Shown: piece after piece, positions 48,112 to 58,995 of the stretch
Layout of the letters: each line of letters opens with the position of its first letter
How positions within the stretch are numbered: the stretch's first letter is position 1
Source: an uncultured virus (IMG/VR IMGVR_UViG_3300035698_018388)
Taxonomy: Duplodnaviria > Heunggongvirae > Uroviricota > Caudoviricetes
Strand: one strand, 5' to 3'
Virus record (IMG/VR): IMGVR_UViG_3300035698_018388
Length of the DNA: 64,000 bases
Notes under the pieces: model-generated
Seen by the model: the letters and a program-made list of their open reading frames with translations, nothing else
What the model was told of the DNA's origin: nothing
Databases searched by the model: none
Program-made: the position numbers and the translations under genes

Positions 48112-48330
48112 ATGAAAAGATTTATTATTATGGCTACTGGAAAAAAAGAAGTTTACGGATACTCTAAAGTGATGTGTAATTTTATTTCTTTCCGACCGGG
48201 TCGTTTGAATATTTCAGAATGTAGTATCTTTGTTGAAAACGAAGTTGATAAAAAAGTTAATGCTCTTATGACCTTCTGGAATAACGTTCCTAATAGTGGT
48301 TATTCAGATATTAAAAAAATTGAAATATAA
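48112..48330 (+). CDS. hypothetical early protein
   Basis: AAGGA RBS; enclosed by 21 bp inverted repeat. Confidence 0.6.
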   Translation: MKRFIIMATGKKEVYGYSKVMCNFISFRPGRLNISECSIFVENEVDKKVNALMTFWNNVPNSGYSDIKKIEI

Positions 48331-48398
48331 ATTTTGCATCGTGTATTTAAAAGGTAGAATATCTTAAAAAAACAAAACCTAACAAGGAGGAGTTAAAA

Positions 48399-48674
48399 AT
48401 GATTAAGAAAACTATTAATGTTGAAGAATTAAAGAACATGGTAAATTCAAGACTTTTACATTCTTTAGATGACCACAAAGGAAAACGAGAAGGTCAAATT
48501 GATTTGATCGAAACCATTCTAATGAAAACTGGAAATTATAATGGCTACAATTTTTTGGATGCTGAAAAAATGAAAGGCTCCTCAAATGGCACTACCGTTG
48601 GTATTAAAGAACAAAAAGCAGACGGAAGTTGGAATTTTGACGATACCGACCACACCCGAATTTATTTTTATTAA
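48399..48674 (+). CDS. hypothetical early protein
   Basis: AAGGAGGAG RBS. Confidence 0.7.
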   Translation: MIKKTINVEELKNMVNSRLLHSLDDHKGKREGQIDLIETILMKTGNYNGYNFLDAEKMKGSSNGTTVGIKEQKADGSWNFDDTDHTRIYFY

Positions 48675-48683
48675 AAAAAAGTA

Positions 48684-48740
48684 TTTCTAATTTCATCGGT
48701 GCTTTACTTGAAAGGGTAAAGCACTCATTGAAGATAGAAA
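48684..48740 (+). repeat. type A intergenic stem (RNase III-like), copy 1
   Basis: tttctaatttcatcg-gtgctttac..gtaaagcac-tcattgaagatagaaa. Confidence 0.75.
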
Positions 48741-48770
48741 GTTAACGTAAAACAAATAAGGGGGAGAAAA

Positions 48771-48944
48771 ATGTTAAAAACAAGTACGAGAAAAACAAAG
48801 TATGGATACCGTGGATATGTTATTTGTTACAACGGCAAAAAAAGGTTATGGTGTGAAAGTGCAGGAATTGACAGGATCAAAAGAGAACATGCTCAAGAAG
48901 ATGCGAATTTGAGAAAAAAAGATAGAGAACAAACATGGGTTTAA
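48771..48944 (+). CDS. hypothetical early protein (57 aa)
   Basis: MLKTSTRKTKYGYRGY...; AAGGGGGAGAA RBS. Confidence 0.65.
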   Translation: MLKTSTRKTKYGYRGYVICYNGKKRLWCESAGIDRIKREHAQEDANLRKKDREQTWV

Positions 48945-48948
48945 TAAA

Positions 48949-49013
48949 TATCGAAACGGGGAGTAATCCCCGTCTATGTAAAGTGATTCTTTGCATACTG
49001 ACGAGATAAATCA
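48949..49013 (+). ncRNA. hammerhead ribozyme, type II (canonical core)
   Basis: tatc-GAAA-cgggga/tccccg-TC-tatgtaaag/ctttgcata-CTGACGA-gata; loop tgatt pairs with 3' aatca; predicted cut after 48974. Confidence 0.92.
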
Positions 49014-49039
49014 AACAACAATTAAATAAGGAGGAGAAA

Positions 49040-49549
49040 ATGATTACTTTAGAACAAGCAAAAAAACTTTCCAACGGACAAATTATTTTTCATGCAGTTG
49101 CAAAAAATGCCGATGGTTCTCCCATGAGATGGAGAGTAAACGGGATGGTGAAGTTGTGGAAGCGTAATCCCAAACGGATTCAGGTTCCTTTGAAGCATGG
49201 TCTCTATGATCACGGCTATCTGGTCGAATCGAATTTGAAAGAATTCTTTCTGACAGAAGAAAAAGTTAAAATGGCAGTTTGCTCCTGTGGTCTTCAATGG
49301 CAATGGGATTTTGATGTTGACACTTTCTTCTATGCCAACACGGATGAAGAAGTTAAAACGGTTGATTTGTTTCCCGATTCTGGTTCTGTTGAAGACGATG
49401 ACGATGAAATCCACGGCGTCACCGTTTATATCTGCTCTTGCGGAAAAGTAAATTCTGCTATTATTAATAATGGCGGGGCGACCGTCGTTCAGATCAAAGA
49501 ATGGGATAAGATCGATTGGGAAAATGATTTGAATTCGTACTGTTTCTAA
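49040..49549 (+). CDS. hypothetical early protein
   Basis: AAGGAGGAGAA RBS; stop lies inside type A stem. Confidence 0.75.
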   Translation: MITLEQAKKLSNGQIIFHAVAKNADGSPMRWRVNGMVKLWKRNPKRIQVPLKHGLYDHGYLVESNLKEFFLTEEKVKMAVCSCGLQWQWDFDVDTFFYANTDEEVKTVDLFPDSGSVEDDDDEIHGVTVYICSCGKVNSAIINNGGATVVQIKEWDKIDWENDLNSYCF

Positions 49550-49641
49550 TTTCATCGGTGGTTCAAGGATCAAAATGGGAGGGTAACAACTGATCACTTT
49601 ATTCTTCAATTAGATTCTTGAACCACTCATTGAAAATAGAA
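49543..49641 (+). repeat. type A intergenic stem, copy 2 (extended apical stem)
   Basis: Same base and tcg/tcat internal loop; gtggttcaagga/ttcttgaaccac upper stem. Confidence 0.75.
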
Positions 49642-49670
49642 GTTAACGTAAAACAAATAAGGAGGAGAAA

Positions 49671-49961
49671 ATGTTAAACAACTTTAAAAAAGTAAGAGAG
49701 TTTGATGACAACGATTGGGACGGTTTGGCTGGTGCTGAAAAATTTGAAGATGGAAGTCTTCCTGTAATTAGGGAAGCAACAAATTTTATGGCTATTGGTG
49801 ATGCAACCGGAATTGAAATTTATCTGGAGGCCGATGCCGAAAACAATTTTAATGTTTCAATCAAAACCAGTCAAAAAGTAATCGCAGCATTCATTGAAAA
49901 TATGGATGCCAATTTAACCGAAGAAAAACTTTTGGCAATGGGATTTAAAGCCGTTTATTAA
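49671..49961 (+). CDS. hypothetical early protein
   Basis: AAGGAGGAGAA RBS. Confidence 0.75.
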   Translation: MLNNFKKVREFDDNDWDGLAGAEKFEDGSLPVIREATNFMAIGDATGIEIYLEADAENNFNVSIKTSQKVIAAFIENMDANLTEEKLLAMGFKAVY

Positions 49962-49964
49962 AAG

Positions 49965-50045
49965 CGTATCAGGTCCTGAGCGGCAGGGGGTAGCAATACT
50001 CCCTGCGTTGCGATTAACGAAGTATGTCAGGACATACTTCAAAAA
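49965..50045 (+). ncRNA. pistol-like ribozyme, circularly permuted (P1 on the 3' side)
   Basis: P2 cgta, TCAGG, tcctga, GCG, P3 10 bp GNRA hairpin, GT, tgcg; then P1 gaagtatg/catacttc with loop tcagga, then AAAAA; predicted cut 50007/50008. Confidence 0.75.
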
Positions 50046-50060
50046 TAAGGAGGAGAAAAA

Positions 50061-50285
50061 ATGAAAGTTGATAAGAAAATAATTGATGCCGGAATATCAG
50101 AAAAGAAAATTGTTGCTCAGTTGGCCGTCATAGTCAAGAATATTGACAACCGACGTTTTCTATTCAAAAGAATTAAAAACCTTTATACGGCTAATCTGGT
50201 GGCTTATTACTATGCTGCCAGGACGTATGCGGATTGGAATTTATCAGCAGCAATCAGAACGGCAATTTTTGAAAGAGCACTTTAA
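50061..50285 (+). CDS. hypothetical early protein
   Basis: AAGGAGGAGAA RBS. Confidence 0.75.
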   Translation: MKVDKKIIDAGISEKKIVAQLAVIVKNIDNRRFLFKRIKNLYTANLVAYYYAARTYADWNLSAAIRTAIFERAL

Positions 50286-50342
50286 TTTCTGTTGTCTTCG
50301 GTGTCATATGTGAAAGCATATGACACTCATAGAAAATAGAAG
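50286..50342 (+). repeat. type A intergenic stem, copy 3
   Basis: tct-tcg-gtgtcatatg/catatgacac-tcat-aga, covarying with other copies. Confidence 0.75.
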
Positions 50343-50369
50343 TTAATATAAACATAAGGAGGAGAAAAG

Positions 50370-50603
50370 ATGAGAATGACAAAAGAACATTTTGCCGCCA
50401 TTAAAAAAGCAATGGATGAAACGATGAAGCGATATCCAAAAATGAAACAGGAATATAAAAAACAAAGTCTCAGCAAAATCCGCTATGCATGGGATATTTT
50501 CAATGCTTCTTTCCGATCAGATTATATTTGTAAATTTCTTTATCCATATTTAAACGATTCGCATATTCAAACAGCACTTCTTAAAATCGTAGGAGAATAT
50601 TAA
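50370..50603 (+). CDS. hypothetical early protein
   Basis: AAGGAGGAGAA RBS; R..WD...LY.YLND.HI.TAL. Confidence 0.75.
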   Translation: MRMTKEHFAAIKKAMDETMKRYPKMKQEYKKQSLSKIRYAWDIFNASFRSDYICKFLYPYLNDSHIQTALLKIVGEY

Positions 50604-50605
50604 AT

Positions 50606-50680
50606 CCTATTAGGTCTTGTGCTGGACAGGATTGCTCCTGTCCATTGGGTGAAACGTCAAGTGGCAAGAGACTTGACATA
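50606..50680 (+). ncRNA. permuted pistol-like element, divergent core
   Basis: ccta, TTAGG, tcttgt, GCT, P3 ggacagga/tcctgtcc, AT, tggg; P1 gtcaagt/acttgac loop contains gcaaga. Confidence 0.6.
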
Positions 50681-50707
50681 ACAATTAACTAAGGAGGAGA
50701 AAAGAAA

Positions 50708-50908
50708 ATGGCAAAAATGAAAATTGCATCGGACAATGTGAAGATGAATGTGGATGATGGAATCCTGACGATCAAAGTCAATTTGAAAAAAGACTTTGGT
50801 GAAAGCAAATCCGGGAAAACGATTATTGTTGCTTCTACTCTGGGCAACAAAAAAATCGAAGGAACGGAAATGACAATGGGATTGAACATCTACAAGTACG
50901 CTGAGTAA
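50708..50908 (+). CDS. small conserved hypothetical protein
   Basis: LTI.V.L....G.SKSGKT.IVAST.GN; AAGGAGGAGAA RBS. Confidence 0.8.
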   Translation: MAKMKIASDNVKMNVDDGILTIKVNLKKDFGESKSGKTIIVASTLGNKKIEGTEMTMGLNIYKYAE

Positions 50909-50966
50909 TTTCTGTTTTAACCAGTACTCTTAATCCTAAAATTAAGAGTACTCATGAAGATAGAAG
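50909..50966 (+). repeat. type A-related intergenic stem, copy 4
   Basis: tttctgtttt...agtactcttaat/attaagagtact-catgaagatagaa. Confidence 0.7.
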
Positions 50967-50997
50967 TTAAACAACAACAACAAACAAGGAGGAGAAA

Positions 50998-51243
50998 ATG
51001 AAAAAAGTAAAAGGAAGTGATCTTCGGTTACGAGATGAAATCAGAAGTTTTAATGATAGCCCTTACAACACATCAACCGTTATTAAAATTGAAGAACATT
51101 CTGTCCATTTGTTTCGGCCCTATGTTCACACTTCTGATTTTTCATCGACTGCCGGAGTAATCCCGTATGTTGGATTTGAAAACTATTCAATCGGTAAAAA
51201 TACGGAAGTTGAATTGCTTCGCAGGAACAAAGCTCCAAAATAG
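50998..51243 (+). CDS. hypothetical early protein
   Basis: AAGGAGGAGAA RBS. Confidence 0.75.
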   Translation: MKKVKGSDLRLRDEIRSFNDSPYNTSTVIKIEEHSVHLFRPYVHTSDFSSTAGVIPYVGFENYSIGKNTEVELLRRNKAPK

Positions 51244-51263
51244 ATTTCTACAGGGAGACAAAA

Positions 51264-51458
51264 ATGAAAAGCGATTTAAGCGGAATTTATTTTAATGGTT
51301 CTCCAATTGATCCTGATTGCTTTATCCCCAGAAATAAAGATACAAAAGAAATAATGGACTCCGCAATGGCAATCAAAAAAAGTATTTATCGGAAACCAAC
51401 AAAAAGATTCTCCTGTCAAGATGAAAAAGATGGGCCTTTAAAAATTATTCATTTCTAA
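51264..51458 (+). CDS. hypothetical early protein
   Basis: GGGAG RBS; stop inside type A stem. Confidence 0.6.
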   Translation: MKSDLSGIYFNGSPIDPDCFIPRNKDTKEIMDSAMAIKKSIYRKPTKRFSCQDEKDGPLKIIHF

Positions 51459-51508
51459 TTTCATCGGTGTCATACTTTGAGGAGTATGACACTCATTGAA
51501 AATAGAAG
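51452..51508 (+). repeat. type A intergenic stem, copy 5
   Basis: gtgtcatact/agtatgacac upper stem with conserved base. Confidence 0.75.
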
Positions 51509-51538
51509 TTAACCACAACAACATAAGGAGGAGAAAAA

Positions 51539-51853
51539 ATGTTAAGAAAATTTGAAAAAAGCGACTATGTGAAGTATCCCGGTGTTGAATCAAAAGACTG
51601 CCAAATTGACGACGATCTAAAAATGATGATAAAAGGTATAGAGTTCAAAGCCACTTTGCTTCGTGATGGATCATTAGTTCATCTTTATTGCTACAACGAA
51701 GATGGGAAAATGGTTCTAATGTATTATCGCAATGTTTCAACAAACAACTTCGCAGTTGAAGTTACAAAAGCTCTTTCGTCAATGTCGTCAATTACCGAAA
51801 ACTTTTTAATGACCGCTCTCGGTTTTGAAAAAAACACATACCGGTCTTTTTAA
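51539..51853 (+). CDS. hypothetical early protein
   Basis: AAGGAGGAGAA RBS. Confidence 0.75.
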   Translation: MLRKFEKSDYVKYPGVESKDCQIDDDLKMMIKGIEFKATLLRDGSLVHLYCYNEDGKMVLMYYRNVSTNNFAVEVTKALSSMSSITENFLMTALGFEKNTYRSF

Positions 51854-51866
51854 AAAGGAGTATAAG

Positions 51867-52031
51867 ATGGACAGGAAGCAAAAGCGGTTCATAAAGAAAA
51901 AAGTCAAGTCGCTTGGATCAAGATCGGAAGCCAAATTATTTTATCGGAGTAACGATGCCGTCAGCAAATTTGCAAATGATTTTGCTGAAGAAATCTTTCC
52001 GGTAGAAATCACAAGGAGAAAAAAGAAATGA
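51867..52031 (+). CDS. small basic protein ending in ITRRKKK
   Basis: AAGGAG RBS before ATG 51867. Confidence 0.6.
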   Translation: MDRKQKRFIKKKVKSLGSRSEAKLFYRSNDAVSKFANDFAEEIFPVEITRRKKK

Positions 52032-52198
52032 TTAACATGATTGCTTTAAAAAGTTATGATGACAAAATGCACGTTTCCAATTTTAAAGACCGAGAAAAGG
52101 CATTTGAAAAGGCACAAGAGCTAATTGATACCGGACAGGGATTGCAAGTAATCCTTCTTTGCGATTCTGAAATTATCTTTAATGAAAACAGTTTCTAA
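52028..52198 (+). CDS. hypothetical protein (56 aa)
   Basis: ATGA coupling, AAGGAG RBS; stop inside type A stem. Confidence 0.6.
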   Translation: MINMIALKSYDDKMHVSNFKDREKAFEKAQELIDTGQGLQVILLCDSEIIFNENSF

Positions 52199-52248
52199 TT
52201 TCATCGGTGCTTTACTTGAAAGAGTAAAGCACTCATTGAAGATAGAAA
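52192..52248 (+). repeat. type A intergenic stem, copy 6
   Basis: Near-identical to copy 1. Confidence 0.75.
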
Positions 52249-52275
52249 ACAATAACAAACCATAAGGAGGAGAAA

Positions 52276-52521
52276 ATGAAACTATCAGAATTTTTTAATG
52301 ACCTTTCAACTATTTTCTTTAAACATGGAGATCTTGATTTAAAGTTTAAAATTTTTCATCCAGAATGCCCAATCAATAACGAAACGGTTGCAAAGGAAGG
52401 AACTCTTTTACTTCCAATAGATACGGATGAAATAATTGAAAATGTCCATCTTGGAAACGGAAACAAAAAAGAAAGAGTAACACCAGCAACACAATTAACA
52501 ATAGTAATTGAATGTAAATAG
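52276..52521 (+). CDS. hypothetical early protein
   Basis: AAGGAGGAGAA RBS. Confidence 0.75.
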   Translation: MKLSEFFNDLSTIFFKHGDLDLKFKIFHPECPINNETVAKEGTLLLPIDTDEIIENVHLGNGNKKERVTPATQLTIVIECK

Positions 52522-52591
52522 TGTCGAAACGGGGAGCCTAACGTTCCCCTTCTATGTAAAGTGATTCTTTGCATATTGATAAGACAAATCA
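52522..52591 (+). ncRNA. hammerhead ribozyme, type II (U3-A8 core variant)
   Basis: tgtc-GAAAc-ggggagc/gttcccc-tTC-stem I-TTGATAA-gaca-aatca; predicted cut after 52552. Confidence 0.82.
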
Positions 52592-52622
52592 ATTTTATTC
52601 ATAATTAACTAAGGAGGAGAAA

Positions 52623-54077
52623 ATGGAAAACAAAGCAAAAGAAATCGTCAGCTACCTAAGAGCGGGATTTTCAACATTCTGGATTCCAACGGCTGAACCA
52701 ATGAGATTAGAATCTTATATCCAACCGATCATTGAAGACTTTGAATCCAAAGCGGGAGACAAGTGGAATGTGAAATCGTGGCGATGCACCATTGACAACG
52801 GGACTCCGGAAGACAAAGATCCGGTGAAGTTTTTAAATAAACTTTCAAATGATGACTCCCCGGAAGGAACTGTCTTTTTCCTTCACAACTTCAATTGGTT
52901 CATCGAAAAGAATAAGCTGCTTGTCCAAATTATTCAGGACCAGTCTCCGGTCTGGGCGAGTCAGGGAAAAGCGATTGTTGTTATTTCTCAAAGTGCAAGT
53001 ATCCCGGTTGAATTGCAAAAGTTTTTTTGTTTATTGAAATTAGATCTGCCGAATGAAGAAGAAATAATTAAATCGGTAGAAAAGATTTCTTCGGCAATTC
53101 CAAATGCAAAACCGGATAAAAAATGCCTTCCAAAAATTGTCAATGCTGCTAAGGGATTAACGTTAAATGAAATTGAAAACGTTTTCTCTTTATCACTTGT
53201 CGAAAAGAGTGCAATCGCACCGGAAGTGATTAACAGTTACAAAGCCCAAATGATTGCCAAAACGGGATTTCTGGAAGTTATTCCGCCGACAAGAAATTTT
53301 TCTTCAATTATCGGTTACGATAGCTGGAAGCAATTTACTCTTGAAACGGGTCGTGACCCACGGAGTAAAGGTTCTCTTTTGATTGGTCATCCGGGAACCG
53401 GCAAGACCATGTTGCTTTATGGAACTGCCGGTGAGTTTCCAGACAAGTCTACCGTAAAACTTGTTATTGGAAAACTCTTTTCAAAATTTGTTGGTGAAAC
53501 GGATGCGAATGTTGATTACGTTATTGATTTCCTAACAGCAATCGGTAATTGCAATTTAATTATTGACGAATTCGAGAAGCAATTCTCGGGCGTTGGTGGT
53601 TCTGACGATGGAACGGGTGGAACAACTATCCGGGCAAATTCCAGATGGCTTGACTTTCTTCAATTCAGACCACCGGGAATTAATGTTTATGGAACCGCAA
53701 ACTCTGTTCGTGGTATTCCACCGGAGTACTTAAGAGCCGGTCGTTGGGATGTTGCTCCCTTTTTCGTTGGATTGCCTTCTGATAATGTTAAAGGAGAAAT
53801 CCTAAATCATTATCTGAAAATTAATGAAATGAAAAAACCGGCTGCTTCTTTAATCCCGAAGATGGAAAAATGGGCTGGATGCGATATTGAAGCATGTTGC
53901 AATCTGGCAAGTATGCGGAGCATTTCATTAATTGAAGCCTCTAAGTTTATCAGGCCTCAGGCATTAACGATGAAAAGGGAAATTGACGAGTTAGAAAGTT
54001 GGGCAAAGGATCGGTGCATCCCTGCTGAAGATGCTCCCGTATCAACGCCCATAAAGAGACGGAAGTTAGCGATCTAA
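52623..54077 (+). CDS. AAA+ ATPase, Ycf46/SpoVK-like
   Basis: GHPGTGKT Walker A, LIIDEFEK Walker B, PPE.LR.GRWD, SK.VGET. Confidence 0.9.
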   Translation: MENKAKEIVSYLRAGFSTFWIPTAEPMRLESYIQPIIEDFESKAGDKWNVKSWRCTIDNGTPEDKDPVKFLNKLSNDDSPEGTVFFLHNFNWFIEKNKLLVQIIQDQSPVWASQGKAIVVISQSASIPVELQKFFCLLKLDLPNEEEIIKSVEKISSAIPNAKPDKKCLPKIVNAAKGLTLNEIENVFSLSLVEKSAIAPEVINSYKAQMIAKTGFLEVIPPTRNFSSIIGYDSWKQFTLETGRDPRSKGSLLIGHPGTGKTMLLYGTAGEFPDKSTVKLVIGKLFSKFVGETDANVDYVIDFLTAIGNCNLIIDEFEKQFSGVGGSDDGTGGTTIRANSRWLDFLQFRPPGINVYGTANSVRGIPPEYLRAGRWDVAPFFVGLPSDNVKGEILNHYLKINEMKKPAASLIPKMEKWAGCDIEACCNLASMRSISLIEASKFIRPQALTMKREIDELESWAKDRCIPAEDAPVSTPIKRRKLAI

Positions 54078-54137
54078 TTTCTATTTTAACGCTTGCCTTT
54101 GATTTTAGGAGGTCAAGGGCAATCATGAAAATAGAAA
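54078..54137 (+). repeat. type A-related intergenic stem, copy 7
   Basis: tttctatttt...ttgcctttgat/gtcaagggcaa-tcatgaaaatagaaa. Confidence 0.7.
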
Positions 54138-54192
54138 ATGAAAATTTCAAAACCGTGTTATAATATTAATATCAACCCATAAGGAGGAGAAA

Positions 54193-54360
54193 ATGAAAAA
54201 GGCAATTGGAAAAAAAGAAATTATTGAAATTTTTGAATTCGATCCAAAATGGAGAAAAGACGGAACAAGTCTACCACTTTGCCGACATCTTCGCCGTCTT
54301 CTCCCCGCTTACAAAAAAGAAAATGGATACCGAATTGAAATTACAGAAGTTAAACCTTAA
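54193..54360 (+). CDS. hypothetical protein (55 aa)
   Basis: MKKAIGKKEIIEIFEF...; AAGGAGGAGAA RBS. Confidence 0.7.
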   Translation: MKKAIGKKEIIEIFEFDPKWRKDGTSLPLCRHLRRLLPAYKKENGYRIEITEVKP

Positions 54361-54429
54361 CAGCAGATAGCCATTAGGATCTGTGCGGTAGCAAGTAATT
54401 GGAAGATTACTTGCTACGTTGGCTAAAAA
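54361..54429 (+). ncRNA. pistol-like element lacking P1, copy 1
   Basis: gcagat, agcca, TTAGG, atctgt, GCG, P3 gtagcaagtaat/attacttgctac, GT, tggct; predicted cut 54418/54419. Confidence 0.65.
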
Positions 54430-54464
54430 TTTTATTAATGTAAAAACAAAATAAGGAGGAGAAA

Positions 54465-54689
54465 ATGAAAAAAATTGTAATCACTCTTGGCAAGAACGGT
54501 TCTAAGAAAGTTGAAACTTTTGGTTTCAGCGGCCCGAGTTGTAAAGAGCAAACCGGCTTTCTAAATAATATTTTTGGCGCTCCTGTAGAATCGGAGTTAA
54601 AACCAGAATTTTATGAAGAAAACGAAACGGAGTCTAACGTAATGTTAGATGTTCACGGACTGCCTGAAGGTGGCCGCTTTTGCGGATAA
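54465..54689 (+). CDS. DUF2997-like protein
   Basis: I.I....G...V...GF.G.SC...T.......G......LKPEFY. Confidence 0.8.
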   Translation: MKKIVITLGKNGSKKVETFGFSGPSCKEQTGFLNNIFGAPVESELKPEFYEENETESNVMLDVHGLPEGGRFCG

Positions 54690-54735
54690 AAAAATCTTTA
54701 AAAAATATAATCCGTTATCCAAAAGGAGAAAAGAA

Positions 54736-55107
54736 ATGAGCCATATTTCAACTTTTTCTGAAAGAATCAAAAACGTCAAGAAGCTTGTAGAGATTGCAAA
54801 AAAATGTGGTTATGAAGTAAAAGAAGATGTGACCGTAACCATGTTCGGTTCTCAAAAGGTTTTTAATGCCGTCTCTATTTCACTCCCCAAATGGGGATAT
54901 CCGGTTGCCATTAGTTCTGTTGGAGACGTTCTTTATGATTTCTTCGGCGCTGAAAAAGGACCGGGGGTTTTTGAACAGCTTGGCAGTCTTGTCCAAAATT
55001 ACAATGAAGCAATTGTAATGGATGAAATTCAGTATGATTGCATCACAAGCGTCGATACCATAGAAAACAAAACCACCGGAGATCGTGTCATTACAATCAC
55101 AATCTAA
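54736..55107 (+). CDS. DUF1257/Ycf35-like protein
   Basis: MSHIST..., LP.W.YPV, YD...G...L..L.Q.Y; AAGGAG RBS. Confidence 0.75.
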   Translation: MSHISTFSERIKNVKKLVEIAKKCGYEVKEDVTVTMFGSQKVFNAVSISLPKWGYPVAISSVGDVLYDFFGAEKGPGVFEQLGSLVQNYNEAIVMDEIQYDCITSVDTIENKTTGDRVITITI

Positions 55108-55167
55108 TTTCTGTTTTAACGCTTGCCTTTGATTTAAGGAGGTCAAAGGCAATCATGAAGATAGAAG
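55108..55167 (+). repeat. type A-related intergenic stem, copy 8
   Basis: Near-identical to copy 7. Confidence 0.7.
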
Positions 55168-55202
55168 TTAATATTAACACAACACCAAACAAGGAGGAGA
55201 AA

Positions 55203-55502
55203 ATGGAAAAGAAATTTGCACAATCAATTTTGGATGCTGCCGAAATAAGAGAAGAATCTTATGATAATGTTGCAGCAGAAACAGCATCAAGAAAAGAAAA
55301 GTATCCAGATTTTTCAACATATTATCGGAAGACGATTGTAAAATCGGCGGAAGAATCTTGCAAGAAAAACAAGATTAATGAAGCCTTTGCAGAAGTCATC
55401 GATTGGGCTTTGTATTCCCATTGGAATGACATCATCGATTGGGCTCAACGAATTCTTGGAAAAGTTAATGCCCATGAGAAAAAAAAGAATAACAATTTCT
55501 AA
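55203..55502 (+). CDS. hypothetical early protein
   Basis: AAGGAGGAGAA RBS before ATG 55203. Confidence 0.75.
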   Translation: MEKKFAQSILDAAEIREESYDNVAAETASRKEKYPDFSTYYRKTIVKSAEESCKKNKINEAFAEVIDWALYSHWNDIIDWAQRILGKVNAHEKKKNNNF

Positions 55503-55550
55503 TTTCTTCGGTGCCGTAACTTCGGTTATGGCACTCATAGAAAATAGAAG
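55496..55550 (+). repeat. type A intergenic stem, copy 9 (cUUCGg loop)
   Basis: gtgccgtaac-ttcg-gttatggcac. Confidence 0.75.
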
Positions 55551-55580
55551 TAAACAACAACAACATAAGGAGGAGAACCG

Positions 55581-55931
55581 ATGAGAACTAAAATTGCAAG
55601 AAACGAATGTCTTTTCTGTAATTTGTTTAATGGTTTTGTATGCGAATGGGGGAATTCCGAAGATTGGAAGTTTGTCTTCCATAACCACATGACCAAGTCG
55701 ATGATCGATGACTCCCTCCAGAAATGCCGCTTGGTCACGGAGGCAAACAGGATCACGGATACCAGAATCAAGATCGAAAGGTTCTGGGGATTCAAAATAA
55801 ACAAACAGGTCGGTCCCAAAAGAACGTTCCTGTTCATTGCCCCGTTATATGTCAAACTGATTAAGGAGTATATCACCAATTTCGCTTTCACAATTCCCGT
55901 TCACTTCTGGAAAATGAAATCCAATTTCTAA
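55581..55931 (+). CDS. hypothetical early protein
   Basis: AAGGAGGAGAA RBS. Confidence 0.7.
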   Translation: MRTKIARNECLFCNLFNGFVCEWGNSEDWKFVFHNHMTKSMIDDSLQKCRLVTEANRITDTRIKIERFWGFKINKQVGPKRTFLFIAPLYVKLIKEYITNFAFTIPVHFWKMKSNF

Positions 55932-55981
55932 TTTCATCGGTGTCATACTTTGAGGAGTATGACACTCATTGAAGATAGAAA
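55925..55981 (+). repeat. type A intergenic stem, copy 10
   Basis: Near-identical to copy 5. Confidence 0.75.
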
Positions 55982-56006
55982 ACAACAACAACATAAGGAG
56001 GAGAAA

Positions 56007-56270
56007 ATGAAATTTTTAACGTGCAAAGAAAGAATGGAAAAAATAAGAAAAATAAAAGATGAAGCAAAAAAACCAATCGAATGCAAAAGCTGCGGAATGG
56101 AAATTTCAAGAACGGCAAAAACCTGCCCCTATTGCGGAGAATTGGCATCAGGTGAAAAGGTAGCCCAAGCAGGGAAGGCAATGATCTTCTTCGGTTTGGG
56201 ATTTATCGGTGTAATTGGGTTAGTTGCATTTGGATTAATTATTTTTGCAATTATATTTGGGAATGTATAG
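56007..56270 (+). CDS. zinc-ribbon membrane protein
   Basis: C.SCG.EIS..A..CPYCG plus C-terminal TM; AAGGAGGAGAA RBS. Confidence 0.75.
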   Translation: MKFLTCKERMEKIRKIKDEAKKPIECKSCGMEISRTAKTCPYCGELASGEKVAQAGKAMIFFGLGFIGVIGLVAFGLIIFAIIFGNV

Positions 56271-56272
56271 GG

Positions 56273-56342
56273 TGTCGAAACGGGGAGCGTTATGCTCCTC
56301 TTCTATGTAAAGTGATTCTTTACATATTGATAAGACAAATCA
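56273..56342 (+). ncRNA. hammerhead ribozyme, type II (U3-A8 variant)
   Basis: Stem III ggggagc/gctcctc, stem I tatgtaaag/ctttacata; predicted cut after 56303. Confidence 0.82.
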
Positions 56343-56377
56343 AAAGCAACTAACAGCTAACTAAGGAGGAGAAAAAA

Positions 56378-56803
56378 ATGGAAAACAAAGCAAAAGAAAA
56401 AAAACCGAAAAAAGGAACAATCAAAAAGAAAAGAATGCCAATTATTAAAAACAAAAAAGATGAATTTATGGCGATTGTAAAAAGGATTCAATCGGCCAGT
56501 CCAAAAGAACTCGATCAGTTAAAAGAAGACATTGGTGTTTTAACTGATCAGATTGAAGAAAAAGAAAGTGGCCTTGCCGAAATAAAAGAAATGACACTTG
56601 AAGCAGAAAAGGCATTTGTAAAAGCCAAAAAAATCTTTGAAAGGATTACCCAAAACGGGGATAAATTTTTCAAAGACAAAAAAGGACCAATCAATTCGGA
56701 TATAATCAATTTCCTTTTCACCGAACAAGAACATGATACAATCAAAGAGTATTTATATACAATCGAAGAGTTGTTCGATTTTTACGCTACCTTGACAGAT
56801 TAG
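56378..56803 (+). CDS. hypothetical coiled-coil protein
   Basis: AAGGAGGAGAA RBS. Confidence 0.75.
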   Translation: MENKAKEKKPKKGTIKKKRMPIIKNKKDEFMAIVKRIQSASPKELDQLKEDIGVLTDQIEEKESGLAEIKEMTLEAEKAFVKAKKIFERITQNGDKFFKDKKGPINSDIINFLFTEQEHDTIKEYLYTIEELFDFYATLTD

Positions 56804-56875
56804 TGTCGAAACGGCGAGGGCAAGACCCTCGCCTTCTATGTAAAGTGATTCTTTGCATATTGATAAGACAAATCA
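56804..56875 (+). ncRNA. hammerhead ribozyme, type II (U3-A8 variant)
   Basis: Stem III ggcgaggg/ccctcgcc; predicted cut after 56836. Confidence 0.82.
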
Positions 56876-56913
56876 ATTTTATTAACGTAACAATTAAATA
56901 AGGAGGAGAACCA

Positions 56914-58014
56914 ATGAAGTTAATCGGATTTGGTAGTACAGTAAAAGGAACAGCAATTCATGGGATTATGGGGATTCGTGAAGGGGTAAAGAAAAATTCT
57001 GCTCTTTGCGATAAAAGAATCGTCGGGCTTATTATCGACAAGGGTTTGACTGCCGAAATGGTAACTTGCAAAAAGTGTTTAAAGAAGGCCTCTATCTTAA
57101 AAGGGGAAAAACCCAAAAAGAAAGCACCGGACAAAAAAGCACTTTCGCAAACAACTCCTGTTCCGGCAAAGAAGACTCCAGCACCGGTAAAGGAAACGGC
57201 TAAGAAGCCACCTATAAAGCCCAAGGCAACACCCAAAACACCGGTCAAGCCCAAAACCAAACCGGTCAAAAAAGCACCGGTTAAAAAGGCACCTGCTAAA
57301 AAAGCATCTGCTGCTGTTCCACCGAAAACAAAGCAAAAACAAATTGAACTACCGCTGAAGGCTTTAAATGAATTCAAACTCGATCAACAATCAACAAACG
57401 GTTTATTTTTTATAACTCATACTCCATCTGAAAAAGTCTTCTTCAAAAACATTGAAGCCGGTCTCGCAACCGAAATTTTGAAAATTGTAAATCAACTGAC
57501 CGTCGGTTGGAATGGGAAAGAAAGTCTTCCCAAGGAATTTCGGTCTTCCGTTCTTACTGCATTTAAACAGGCTCATGTAAATTTGGAATTGGCCCTGCCA
57601 ACAAAATTTGAAGAACGGGAAGAAAAGGAACAAAATGATGAACCGCCGAAAATAACAAGACGGGGAGTCAAAAAAGGTAATTCCAAAACGGAAACGAAAA
57701 TAACAAGACGCCATGCAAAAAAAAGATCAACTGTTAATATTGATCAGCCGATTACAAGGAGAAAAAGGACTCCAACAAAGGTTGTCCGGCACTTCTTACA
57801 TTATGGAGGACAACTTACATCTGTTCTGGTTGAACTGGTAACCGAATTTGGGTTTACCGAAACCAGAGCACAAGCAAAATTCAAATCTATTCTCCGGAAA
57901 ATAACCAGAATACAAAGAAGAACGGTCGTTCATACCATAACAAATCACCCGTTAAACGACCACTACATTTTTTTACCGTCAAGAAAATTACCGGAAGATG
58001 AAGCTAAGGAATAA
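56914..58014 (+). CDS. basic protein with Lys/Pro/Ala-rich (histone H1-like) linker and ITRR repeats
   Basis: PAKK/PVKK repeats, N-terminal Cys cluster, three ITRR motifs. Confidence 0.75.
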   Translation: MKLIGFGSTVKGTAIHGIMGIREGVKKNSALCDKRIVGLIIDKGLTAEMVTCKKCLKKASILKGEKPKKKAPDKKALSQTTPVPAKKTPAPVKETAKKPPIKPKATPKTPVKPKTKPVKKAPVKKAPAKKASAAVPPKTKQKQIELPLKALNEFKLDQQSTNGLFFITHTPSEKVFFKNIEAGLATEILKIVNQLTVGWNGKESLPKEFRSSVLTAFKQAHVNLELALPTKFEEREEKEQNDEPPKITRRGVKKGNSKTETKITRRHAKKRSTVNIDQPITRRKRTPTKVVRHFLHYGGQLTSVLVELVTEFGFTETRAQAKFKSILRKITRIQRRTVVHTITNHPLNDHYIFLPSRKLPEDEAKE

Positions 58015-58021
58015 ACCTTAA

Positions 58022-58089
58022 CAGCAGATAGCCATTAGGATCTGTGCGGTAGTACTCAATTGGAGGACTGAGTACTGCGTTGGCTAAAA
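58022..58089 (+). ncRNA. pistol-like element lacking P1, copy 2
   Basis: Core identical to 54361 copy, different P3 (gtagtactca/tgagtactgc); predicted cut 58079/58080. Confidence 0.65.
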
Positions 58090-58119
58090 TAAATTAATAA
58101 ACAACATAAGGAGGAGAAA

Positions 58120-58995
58120 ATGAAAAGTCAGAAGGTAGATCTTCACGAAGACGGAATTCTTATTTCCATAAAGATTAGAAAGTGGGATGCTCGTAAATCG
58201 CAGAATGTCAAACAATTAGGAAAAGACATTCCCGCTGAAATTATTAGAGCATCGAAAAGTCTTATTGATGACCGAACCGTTCTCAAGGACTTTTCCCGGC
58301 TTGGAAGGGAGGCAAAACATTTTATAAAAATGAATAGTGCTCCTTTCCCGGTTGATAGTGTTTTCTGGATTCCCAAAGAAAGAGTAATTGCCATAGACGA
58401 AAAGCTCATTGATATCGAACAAAGATTTACAGTTTTAAAAAATGAGCTTGCAAAAAACATCGGCAAATTTCAGAAGCGTTATGCAAAAAAATATCCTGCA
58501 TTTTATGACCCTGAAAAATATCCCTCTCCAGAAGAAATAAAAGCAAAATTTAATATCAAATGGAGATTCTTTGATATGACATTACCAACAACAAAGAAAG
58601 GTCTTTCTGTAAAGATGCTTCGCCGAGAAGAAGAAAAAGCAAAACAAATGGTGAAGGAAATTGAAGAAATGACCCTCAATATGTTTGGTAATGCGATCAT
58701 AAGAAGACTTGCGAAACTGAATACTCAGTGTAGCGATGGCAGGGCAAATCAGGGAACTTTAAATTCGATAAATAAACTTCTGAAAAATTGGGAAGACCTC
58801 TGGGGTAATCATGTTGACGATAACTCCTTCAGAATGGCAATCAACCGAATTAAAAAACAAATGAAAAAAACAGATGCGGTAAGACTCAGGGACAACGATG
58901 ATTTCAGAAACAAAGTCGAAAAGGAAACTAAAAAGATCATCGGCAAAATTAAGAACGTTCCCAACTTCCAGTTGAACCGAAAAATTTCTTTGTAA
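58120..58995 (+). CDS. DUF3150-like protein
   Basis: I.I..W..RK, K.LID, FWIP, YP....I..KF...W pattern; AAGGAGGAGAA RBS. Confidence 0.6.
   Translation: MKSQKVDLHEDGILISIKIRKWDARKSQNVKQLGKDIPAEIIRASKSLIDDRTVLKDFSRLGREAKHFIKMNSAPFPVDSVFWIPKERVIAIDEKLIDIEQRFTVLKNELAKNIGKFQKRYAKKYPAFYDPEKYPSPEEIKAKFNIKWRFFDMTLPTTKKGLSVKMLRREEEKAKQMVKEIEEMTLNMFGNAIIRRLAKLNTQCSDGRANQGTLNSINKLLKNWEDLWGNHVDDNSFRMAINRIKKQMKKTDAVRLRDNDDFRNKVEKETKKIIGKIKNVPNFQLNRKISL

What the first reader, a model, noticed from the sequence alone, without database searches (positions are those of the whole stretch)
49965..50680. Circularly permuted pistol-like ribozymes with P1 moved to the 3' side
Seen: 49965-50045 has the pistol core order P2, YYAGG, 6 nt pseudoknot strand, GCG, P3, GU, P2'. 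The P1 hairpin whose loop (UCAGGA) pairs with that strand (UCCUGA), plus the A-run, comes after P2 rather than before it. The copy at 50606-50680 differs in sequence but keeps every pairing (UCUUGU/GCAAGA), which is covariation; its core reads GCU...AU instead of GCG...GU. Established: canonical pistol is P1-AAA-P2-UUARG-pk-GCG-P3-GU-P2'. Inference: a natural permutation that standard models would probably miss. I cannot confirm whether it has been reported.
Basis: partly seen in the sequence, partly recalled or inferred. Interest (0 to 1): 0.85.

Follow-up and report, generated by a model that had tools for sequence, protein, structure and literature searches.

The report
Natural rearranged pistol ribozymes in phage
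Two gaps between genes of an uncultured phage carry a pistol self-cutting RNA whose first hairpin has moved to the far end, a natural rearrangement not found in print for this ribozyme class and one that standard search models miss.

Summary
Window 49959-50045 and 50601-50683 (+ strand) each carry a complete pistol core: P2, UYAGG, a 6-nt pseudoknot strand, GCK, P3, a 2-nt junction and P2'. A 6-7 nt linker follows, then a hairpin (P1) whose loop is fully complementary to the pseudoknot strand.

Six more copies lie in a related 65.6-kb phage genome (G002). Across the 8 copies all 159 cells pair, and 14 of 20 pairs show compensatory change. None of 100 shuffled windows gives the full pattern. 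Rfam's Pistol model scores every copy below its cut-off.

I read them as natural circularly permuted pistol ribozymes. Predicted cuts are G50007|U50008 and A50644|U50645. They probably chop a polycistronic phage message gene by gene.

Cleavage is untested, because no RNA data exist. Copy 2 carries G42U, which may weaken it.

Literature searches found only a synthetic permuted pistol. The scan earlier noted a differently rearranged pistol on other DNA (e1-5961379).

Context: 18 RNA elements lie between the genes of this 10-kb operon. They include type II hammerheads, two pistol cores without P1, and an unknown class with 10 copies.

The parts
49959..49964 (+). Copy 1: stop codon UAA of ORF 49671-49961 plus an A-run (UAAAAG) directly 5' of P2. 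This is the canonical position of the pistol A-rich linker.
   Evidence: the Rfam consensus line AUAAAuA-P2 aligns here
49965..49968 (+). Copy 1: P2 5' strand CGUA, which pairs with 50009-50012.
   Evidence: helix 1: 100% of cells paired, 2 of 4 pairs with changes on both sides
49969..49973 (+). Copy 1: UC-AGG, equivalent to U29 U30 A31 R32 G33 of the pistol core.
   Evidence: roles taken from PMC6795133 and PMC6154101 passages
49974..49979 (+). Copy 1: pseudoknot strand UCCUGA.
49980..49982 (+). Copy 1: GCG, equivalent to G40 (general base), C41 and G42.
49983..50006 (+). Copy 1: P3 hairpin.
   Evidence: in the minimum-energy fold
50007..50008 (+). Copy 1: 2-nt junction GU. The predicted scissile bond lies between G50007 and U50008.
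   Evidence: by position in the pistol consensus. Cleavage is not tested.
50009..50012 (+). Copy 1: P2' UGCG.
50013..50019 (+). Copy 1: new linker AUUAACG joining P2' to P1. Canonical pistols have no such linker.
50020..50039 (+). Copy 1: P1 hairpin. Its loop UCAGGA (50027-32) pairs with 49974-79.
50040..50060 (+). Copy 1: A-run CAAAAA, then the Shine-Dalgarno site AAGGAGGAG, ahead of the ATG at 50061.
50601..50683 (+). Copy 2, whole element: UAAAU; P2 50606-09; UUAGG; pseudoknot strand 50615-20; GCU 50621-23; P3 50624-43; A50644|U50645; P2' 50646-49; linker 50650-55; P1 50656-77 with GCAAGA at 50664-69.
   Evidence: (74.8 bits with model R1)
54363..54424 (+). Related pistol core without a P1 hairpin. 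GCAGAU, the complement of the pseudoknot strand AUCUGU, lies directly 5' of P2 AGCCA. Predicted cut: G54418|U54419.
   Evidence: (20.3 bits)
58024..58085 (+). Second P1-less pistol core. Flanks and core are the same as in 54363-54424, but the P3 sequence differs.

Best explanation
Both elements are natural circular permutations of the pistol self-cleaving ribozyme. The catalytic core keeps its canonical order: P2, UYAGG, pseudoknot strand, GCK, P3, 2-nt junction, P2'. The P1 hairpin, whose loop forms the 6-bp pseudoknot, is attached to the 3' end of P2' by a 6-7 nt linker instead of preceding P2.

Inferred folding. P1, the pseudoknot and P3 stack coaxially and P2 lies alongside, as in solved pistols. 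The G of GCK acts as general base. The chain is cut between the two junction nucleotides (G50007|U50008 and A50644|U50645), leaving a 2',3'-cyclic phosphate and a 5'-OH.

Inferred biology. The elements begin at or within about 11 nt of the upstream stop codon and end 7-25 nt before a strong Shine-Dalgarno site. Co-transcriptional cutting would therefore split a polycistronic phage transcript gene by gene. The upstream message would end in the P3 hairpin. Because of the permutation, the downstream message would begin with the P1 hairpin, about 11 nt from its 5' end.

Shown: sequence, pairings, covariation, recurrence and position. Inferred: fold, cleavage, cleavage site and role.
For: (1) Core match to Rfam Pistol over P2 to P2' for copy 1: 24.5 bits, E 0.051 in 1.2 kb.

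(2) Eight copies in two phage genomes, 2 in the window and 6 in G002/L003, were found first by a descriptor that does not fix the pseudoknot sequence and then by a covariance model.

(3) On the model-based alignment A3, 159 of 159 cells form standard pairs. 14 of 20 pairs have changes on both sides: P1 6 of 6, outer P3 4 of 4, P2 2 of 4, pseudoknot 2 of 6. No shuffle of 500 reaches the observed percentage paired, number of pairs changed on both sides, or covariation score. Sliding the partners by 1-3 columns drops pairing to 39-51%. The pseudoknot was not part of the model, so that helix is an independent test.

(4) Core residues in the 8 copies: U29, A31, R32, G33, G40, C41 and U(+1) in 8 of 8; a junction of exactly 2 nt in 8 of 8; GU in 7 and AU in 1. 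Harris 2015 says the junction length is strictly conserved while its letters vary (section 5). A32G is active (PMC6154101 passage).

(5) None of 100 shuffled windows gives the full pattern.

(6) Joining P2' to P1 is compatible with activity. The engineered CPP pistol links the native 5' and 3' ends and even tolerates an aptamer in that linker (PMC10103173 passages).

(7) Context rich in ribozymes. A canonical type II hammerhead core lies at 48949-49008, and three variant copies occupy equivalent gaps between genes.
Against: No cleavage data. No RNA run holds this phage, so expression could not be examined.

The family is narrow. All 8 copies come from two related phages, 7 share one pseudoknot sequence, and the pseudoknot covariation rests on copy 1 alone.

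Copy 2 and one G002 copy have U at the G42 position. Removing G42 O6 costs 700-fold in rate (PMC6795133 passage), so these two may be slow or dead.

None reaches Rfam's gathering score.

P2 is only 4 bp.

Which A-run, if either, forms the minor-groove triple with P1 is unresolved.

Wider searches found no further lineage: pattern scans; model R2 on 150 scored genomes; blastn.
Confidence: 0.7

Rival explanations
1. The RNAs derive from pistols and do fold, but they no longer cut, or barely cut. They would act as folded punctuation between cistrons: 3' and 5' hairpins that stabilise messages, insulate translation, or serve as sites for a host or phage RNase.
For: Two of 8 copies carry G42U, and one of those also has A at position -1. 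G42 O6 matters 700-fold. The same gaps in this operon also hold 10 copies of a plain hairpin-with-internal-loop element (class B) that has no known ribozyme core, so structure alone may be what is selected. There is no RNA evidence either way.
Against: Six of 8 copies keep every catalytic residue tested. The 2-nt junction and U(+1) are invariant. Hairpins alone would not need a conserved UUARG...GCG core, or a pseudoknot that covaries.
Confidence: 0.18
2. These are canonical pistols, with a real P1 lying upstream in the preceding gene. The 3' hairpin would be an unrelated leader hairpin of the next gene.
For: Rfam's alignment places a 4-bp A/U 'P1' at 49946-49957. An A-run lies at the canonical place 5' of P2 in 7 of 8 copies. 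Weak upstream complements exist in 2 of 8 copies.
Against: The loop of the upstream 'P1' in copy 1 cannot pair with UCCUGA. The upstream complements in 2 of 8 copies lie in no hairpin (flanking stems of 0-2 bp) and need 2-3 G-U pairs. The 3' hairpin loop pairs 6 of 6 in 8 of 8 copies and covaries with the pseudoknot strand.
Confidence: 0.03
3. This is a chance resemblance. A repeated cassette between genes, spread by recombination, merely looks like a pistol.
For: The copies in G002 are close duplicates that include the spacer and Shine-Dalgarno site. Assembly graphs join at these repeats.
Against: None of 100 shuffles gives the pattern. Copy 1 differs from the others in P1, P2, P3 and the pseudoknot sequence yet keeps every pairing and the core letters. 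Rfam's Pistol model, which was built without these sequences, finds the core.
Confidence: 0.04

Closest known systems
Canonical pistol self-cleaving ribozyme (Rfam RF02679; Harris et al. 2015, PMC4604425, section 5 read; Weinberg et al. 2015 not held)
   Same: Three helices, and a 6-bp pseudoknot between the P1 loop and the P2-P3 junction. The core UUARG...GCG is present. A strictly 2-nt junction carries the cut site. The phage setting between genes also matches.
   Different: The 5'-to-3' order differs: P1 follows P2' through a new 6-7 nt linker. P1 is 6-9 bp, and its loop is 8 nt in 7 of 8 copies. All copies score below Rfam's cut-off. G42 is U in 2 of 8 copies.
Synthetic circularly permuted pistol, CPP (Mustafina et al. 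2021; seen only as described in PMC10103173 passages, and in a reference list)
   Same: The native 3' end (P2') is joined to the native 5' end (P1) by a linker. That construct cuts in cells.
   Different: CPP is engineered and opens the chain in the P3 loop (L3). The natural form keeps P3 closed and opens the chain next to the A-rich linker, either between P1 and the A-run or between the A-run and P2.
Natural circular permutations of hammerhead (types I-III) and twister (P1/P3/P5), and non-circular hammerhead permutations (Eckert et al. 2023, PMC10085705, passages). Hairpin and TS-like permutations are named in PMC11620745 passages.
   Same: The principle is the same: the conserved core and helices are kept while the strand order is rotated.
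   Different: The ribozyme class differs. One search lists only hammerhead and twister as naturally circularly permuted. The passage names hammerhead, twister, hairpin and TS-like. Neither lists pistol.
Pseudoknot-containing hammerhead (Zhan et al. 2024, PMC11300833, abstract and passages)
   Same: It has the same fold and connectivity as canonical pistol: hairpin loop to pseudoknot, an A-minor triple on that hairpin, and a helix lying parallel to the pseudoknot.
   Different: It needs the CUGANGA and GAAA cores, which these elements lack. Its hairpin is 5', as in canonical pistol.

Membership tests
Pistol ribozyme (RF02679) | [quoted passage not shown] | tested here: met
   8 of 8 copies. 159 of 159 cells pair, and 14 of 20 pairs show changes on both sides, including 2 of 6 pseudoknot pairs.
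Pistol ribozyme (RF02679) | Core residues U29, A31, purine 32, G33, G40 and C41 | tested here: met
   Present in 8 of 8 copies. Their roles are taken from passages.
Pistol ribozyme (RF02679) | G42 (its O6 contacts the -1 guanine) | tested here: inconclusive
   G in 6 of 8 copies. U in window copy 2 and in L003 copy 8529. G42 without O6 is 700-fold slower.
Pistol ribozyme (RF02679) | Junction of exactly 2 nt (usually GU) between P3 and P2', carrying the scissile bond | tested here: met
   The length is 2 in 8 of 8 copies. GU in 7, AU in 1. The rule comes from Harris 2015, section 5.
Pistol ribozyme (RF02679) | Strand order P1, A-rich linker, P2 ... P3 ... P2' | tested here: not met
   P1 lies 3' of P2' in 8 of 8 copies, and no usable upstream hairpin exists.
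Pistol ribozyme (RF02679) | A-rich linker lying in the P1 minor groove | tested here: inconclusive
   UAAA lies 5' of P2 in 7 of 8 copies, but it contains the stop codon in 6. An A-run directly 3' of P1 is present in 8 of 8, but all spacers in this operon are A-rich.
Pistol ribozyme (RF02679) | Score at or above Rfam's gathering threshold (34.5 bits) | tested here: not met
   Window: 24.5 bits for copy 1, and copy 2 not reported. G002: best 29.1 bits, with 0 of 5 matches over the cut-off.
Pistol ribozyme (RF02679) | Mg2+-dependent self-cleavage giving a 2',3'-cyclic phosphate and a 5'-OH | not testable with these tools
   No RNA holder is listed for this phage.
Pseudoknot hammerhead / hammerhead | CUGANGA and GAAA core blocks with a UH cut site | tested here: not met
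   Absent from 49959-50045 and 50601-50683. The window's true hammerhead cores lie in other gaps.
Synthetic CPP pistol | New termini made in the P3 loop | tested here: not met
   P3 is a closed hairpin in 8 of 8 copies.

The most novel reading that the evidence does not exclude
The 10-kb operon at 48.1-58.2 kb would be a message in which essentially every gene boundary is a self-cleaving ribozyme. It would use at least four architectures side by side: permuted pistol with P1 on the 3' side (2 copies); a minimal pistol with no P1 hairpin, whose pseudoknot partner is a plain 5' strand (2 copies); type II hammerhead (4 copies); and the unclassified class B element (10 copies; a hairpin with an invariant internal loop, starting at the stop codon). 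Class B would then be a new self-cleaving class, found by the same guilt-by-association logic that yielded pistol itself.
Probability: 0.25. Interest if true: 0.85.

Novelty: new variant of a known kind. Interest (0 to 1): 0.66.

Why it matters
In what I could search, natural circular permutation is recorded for hammerhead, twister, hairpin and TS-like ribozymes, but not for pistol. A natural pistol with P1 on the 3' side would have four consequences.

- It would show that the pistol fold tolerates rewiring in nature, as engineers found with CPP.
- It would show that annotation based on Rfam misses a whole topological form, so pistol counts in phages are too low.
- It offers a functional rationale that can be tested. 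After cutting, the upstream message ends in P3 and the downstream message starts with P1, so both products carry a hairpin at the new end.
- Together with the neighbouring hammerheads, it gives a compact natural system (18 elements in 10 kb) for asking what phage ribozymes are for, which is still an open question.

Tried and rejected
**RNA evidence.** No RNA holder is listed for window 48300-58200.

**DNA contigs.** Four DNA runs were laid. They gave identical sequence at the ribozymes, so no natural variants, and only assembly joints at the repeated Shine-Dalgarno regions.

**Own assembly.** It is not held. The nearest record, G001, does not cover the region.

**More family members.**
- Exact 19-mer in viral contigs: 0.
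- Pattern AATCCNNTTARGTCTTGTGCK. Viral contigs gave only G002. Metagenome contigs gave G002 again, two contigs identical to the window (L017, L025), one truncated copy (L020) and chance hits. Genome contigs gave 8 loci, all chance by inspection.
- A pattern that does not fix the pseudoknot sequence: 38 loci, of which only the 3 from G002 are real.
- Type-3 18-mer: 0.
- Protein-anchored loci: only G002 and G003. G003 has no copy.
- Model R2 on 150 scored genomes of one phylum sample: none.
- blastn against cultured phages: nothing relevant.

**Readings rejected.**
- Upstream P1: rejected.
- Hammerhead or pseudoknot-hammerhead reading of these two elements: rejected, because they have no CUGANGA or GAAA.
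- GCU/AU in copy 2 as a covarying pair: rejected, because L003 copy 8529 has GCU with GU.

**Class B.** No Rfam match, and its motif is absent from viral contigs. The hatchet and TS-like passages I read gave no convincing likeness.

**Papers not held.** Wilson 2019 JACS and Weinberg 2015. Their supplements might list rare pistol variants that I could not see.

Full report
**Observation**

Copy 1 reads, in order:
- UAAAAG
- CGUA (P2)
- UC AGG
- UCCUGA (pseudoknot strand)
- GCG
- a 24-nt P3 hairpin
- GU
- UGCG (P2')
- AUUAACG (linker)
- a hairpin AAGUAUG / CAUACUU with loop UCAGGA
- CAAAAA, then the Shine-Dalgarno site

Copy 2 has the same plan with other letters: P2 is CCUA/UGGG, the pseudoknot is UCUUGU/GCAAGA, the triplet is GCU and the junction is AU.

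The canonical order is P1, then an A-rich linker, then P2 and so on. I take this from Harris 2015, section 5, and from the Rfam consensus line printed.

**Is it more than chance?**

I wrote a descriptor that asks for:
- A[AG]G, then 6 nt, then GC[GT];
- a P3 of 5 bp or more, then [GA]U;
- a 4-bp P2;
- a downstream hairpin of 5 bp or more whose loop pairs 6 of 6 with the 6-mer.

It finds 4 cores and 2 full hits in the window. In 100 dinucleotide shuffles it finds a mean of 0.27 cores and 0 full hits. A somewhat looser version run over 18 other loci returned only the known copies.

Both stretches fold more stably than shuffles: z = -4.7 with 0 of 200 shuffles as stable, and z = -2.9 with 2 of 200.

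**Independent recognition**

Rfam's Pistol model aligns copy 1 from P2 to P2' at 24.5 bits (gathering score 34.5; E 0.051 in 1.2 kb). To do so it has to invent a 4-bp A/U 'P1' at 49946-49957, whose short loop cannot pair with UCCUGA. Copy 2 is not reported at E up to 10. Nothing in the window reaches any gathering score.

**Relatives**

The window's own assembly is not held. A 484-aa AAA ATPase encoded at 52623-54077 (Pfam AAA) led to two complete phage genomes:
- G002, 65.6 kb, 56% identity;
- G003, 82.8 kb, 42% identity.

G002 carries six elements of the same architecture within 5 kb, all on the gene strand. G003 carries none. In G002 the Rfam Pistol model again stays under its cut-off: best 29.1 bits, with 0 of 5 matches over it.

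Two metagenome contigs (L017, L025) are identical to the window at the elements. A third contig (L020) breaks off 5 nt into what looks like another copy.

**Covariation**

I built a covariance model from six copies, without the pseudoknot. I used it to align all eight copies (A3). On A3, with the pseudoknot added by hand:
- 159 of 159 cells are standard pairs;
- 14 of 20 pairs change on both sides: P1 6 of 6, outer P3 4 of 4, P2 2 of 4, pseudoknot 2 of 6;
- no shuffle of 500 reaches the observed percentage paired, number of pairs changed on both sides, or covariation score;
- sliding the partners by 1-3 columns gives 39-51% pairing.

Two caveats apply. The alignment was fitted to P1, P2 and P3, though not to the pseudoknot. 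Both pseudoknot changes come from copy 1, because the other seven copies share UCUUGU/GCAAGA.

**Core residues**

Across the eight copies:
- U29, A31, purine 32 (A in 4, G in 4), G33, G40, C41 and U(+1) are present in 8 of 8;
- the P3-P2' junction is 2 nt in 8 of 8;
- position -1 is G in 7 and A in 1;
- G42 is G in 6 and U in 2 (window copy 2 and L003 copy 8529).

What the papers say about these residues:
- A32G is active (PMC6154101 passage).
- U(+1) pairs with U29. The -1 G amine contacts G42 O6, and removing that O6 costs 700-fold (PMC6795133 passages).

So copy 1 and five G002 copies look fully equipped. Copy 2 may be impaired. Its GCU/AU is not a pair rule, because L003 copy 8529 has GCU with GU.

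**Topology**

In solved pistols the pseudoknot stacks coaxially on P1 and P3. P2 lies parallel beside the pseudoknot, and the A-rich linker forms A-minor triples in the P1 minor groove (PMC11300833 passages; PMC6795133).

My inference from this: the far end of P2 and the base of P1, which the canonical A-rich linker joins, are the same two points that the new 6-7 nt linker joins here, in the opposite strand direction.

Such a link is tolerated. The engineered CPP pistol joins the native termini and even accepts an aptamer there, but it opens the chain in L3 (PMC10103173 passages).

Where nature opened the chain is ambiguous.
- UAAA lies 1-2 nt before P2 in 7 of 8 copies. In 6 of those it contains the upstream stop codon. 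The one copy whose stop lies 11 nt before P2 lacks the UAAA. In another copy the upstream ORF reads through the A-run and stops inside UUUAGG.
- An A-run (AUAAC, AAAAC or CAAAAA) directly follows P1 in 8 of 8 copies, but every spacer in this operon is A-rich.

Either reading is a circular permutation.

**Setting**

From 48.1 to 58.2 kb the + strand carries about 25 mostly small genes of unknown function. Twenty were scanned. Pfam matched five: AAA, DUF2997, DUF3150, zinc ribbon, and weak sub-threshold hits to one more. PHROGs gave mostly unknown function.

Each gene is preceded by UAAGGAGGAG, and the gaps between genes are 77-121 nt. These gaps hold 18 structured elements that begin at or near the stop codon.

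- Two permuted pistols, described above.
- Two pistol cores with no P1 hairpin, at 54363-54424 and 58024-58085. Their complement of the pseudoknot strand (GCAGAU) lies directly 5' of P2. The two copies differ only in P3, so this pseudoknot is untested by covariation.
- Four type II hammerheads.
  - The one at 48949-49008 has a textbook core: CUGACGA, GAAA, the A15.1-U16.1 pair, and C17 at 48974.
  - Three others, in gaps 52522-52622, 56271-56377 and 56804-56913, read UUGAUAA. I recall this as the U3/A8 form of the C3-G8 pair. They also carry a C-U mismatch at 15.2/16.2 (read by eye).
  - Rfam reports none of them.
- Ten copies of class B. It starts UAAUUUC, then a variable hairpin closed by GGUG/CACU in 6 of the 9 aligned copies, then an invariant UCAU, GAA and AUAGAA. 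Seven of 11 predicted pairs show changes on both sides. It has no Rfam match.

The co-occurrence of ribozyme classes in phage gaps between genes is the same association that led to the discovery of pistol (Harris 2015, section 5; Eckert 2023, introduction).

**Mechanism proposed**

This is inference. The elements would cut themselves during transcription at the junction. The upstream cistron would be released ending in the P3 hairpin with a cyclic phosphate. The downstream cistron would start with 5'-OH, U, P2', the linker and then the P1 hairpin, followed 7-25 nt later by its Shine-Dalgarno site.

[quoted passage not shown] I recall that 5'-proximal hairpins stabilise bacterial mRNAs; that is not tested here. 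The permutation also means the ribozyme cannot fold until P1, its last part, has been transcribed.

**Known or new**

Three full-text searches returned 11, 11 and 29 papers (27 listed); none describes a natural permuted pistol:
- 'pistol ribozyme' with 'circularly permuted';
- pistol, self-cleaving, bacteriophage and permut;
- pistol, permut and ribozyme, from 2022 on.

I checked passages in four of these papers. Eckert 2023 states that only hammerhead and twister are naturally circularly permuted. A 2024 paper adds hairpin and TS-like.

Weinberg 2015 and Wilson 2019 are not held, and I saw no supplements, so a rare variant listed there would have escaped me.

Another reports an operon punctuated by RNA modules (e1-5778435). 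I did not test either.

**Verdict**

This is a new topological variant of a known ribozyme class. It is so far seen in two related phages, plus one truncated hit. Catalysis is unproven.

Noticed in passing
window 54363-54424 and 58024-58085 (+): Two pistol cores (AGCCA UUAGG AUCUGU GCG, P3, GU, UGGCU) have no P1 hairpin. The only 6-of-6 complement of the pseudoknot strand, GCAGAU, lies directly 5' of P2. This would make a plain H-type pseudoknot, a possible minimal pistol. The two copies differ only in P3, so the pseudoknot is untested by covariation. The 18-mer core was not found in viral contigs.
   Followed up: partly
window 48949-49008; gaps 52522-52622, 56271-56377, 56804-56913 (+): Type II hammerhead ribozymes with an open stem II. 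One has a canonical core (CUGACGA, GAAA, C17 at 48974). Three have UUGAUAA and a C-U mismatch at 15.2/16.2. The stem I loop UGAUU is complementary to AAUCA just 3' of stem II, a possible tertiary pseudoknot. Rfam reports none of them.
   Followed up: partly
window, elements starting at 48688, 49547, 50283, 50906, 51456, 52196, 54075, 55105, 55500, 55929 (+): Class B: ten copies of an unclassified element. It starts with UAAUUUC, where UAA is the upstream stop codon at 9 of the 10 starts (at 48688 the stop lies 16 nt upstream). A variable, covarying hairpin follows, closed by GGUG/CACU in 6 of the 9 aligned copies, then an invariant UCAU, GAA and AUAGAA(GUUAA). UAAUUUC can pair with GAAGUUA. 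It has no Rfam match and no match in viral contigs. It occupies the same position as the ribozymes, so it is a candidate processing site or a new ribozyme.
   Followed up: partly
window 55155 and 55959 (ORF starts): The mechanically called starts of ORFs 55155-55502 and 55959-56270 fall inside complete class B elements (55105-55171 and 55929-55985). The true starts are probably further downstream.
   Followed up: no
window 50604-50707, 58015-58119; L037 6824-6925, 10521-10625: In nested minimum-energy folds, the CCU-rich 5' edge of the ribozymes (for example AUCCCUUU or ACCUUA) pairs with the downstream Shine-Dalgarno site about 85 nt away. If this is real, cutting would separate an anti-SD from its SD. 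Copy 1 lacks this pairing, so it may be chance.
   Followed up: no
L020 1-33 (-), metagenome contig: A contig end carries AAUCCUC UUAAG UCUUGU GCG CCUGG and then stops. It is probably a third carrier of the family, cut off before P3.
   Followed up: partly
window 49670/50043, 49671/52545, 50071/53979 and others: Contigs from other DNA runs join distant gene starts at the repeated UAAGGAGGAG leaders, with short flanks of 21-32 nt. This suggests either assembly ambiguity or cassette shuffling between related phages.
   Followed up: no
G002:C1:62806-62878 (-), locus L011: A weak match of model R1 (18.9 bits, E 0.021), far from the six-copy cluster. The looser descriptor found no pistol core in L011. 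Not examined further.
   Followed up: partly
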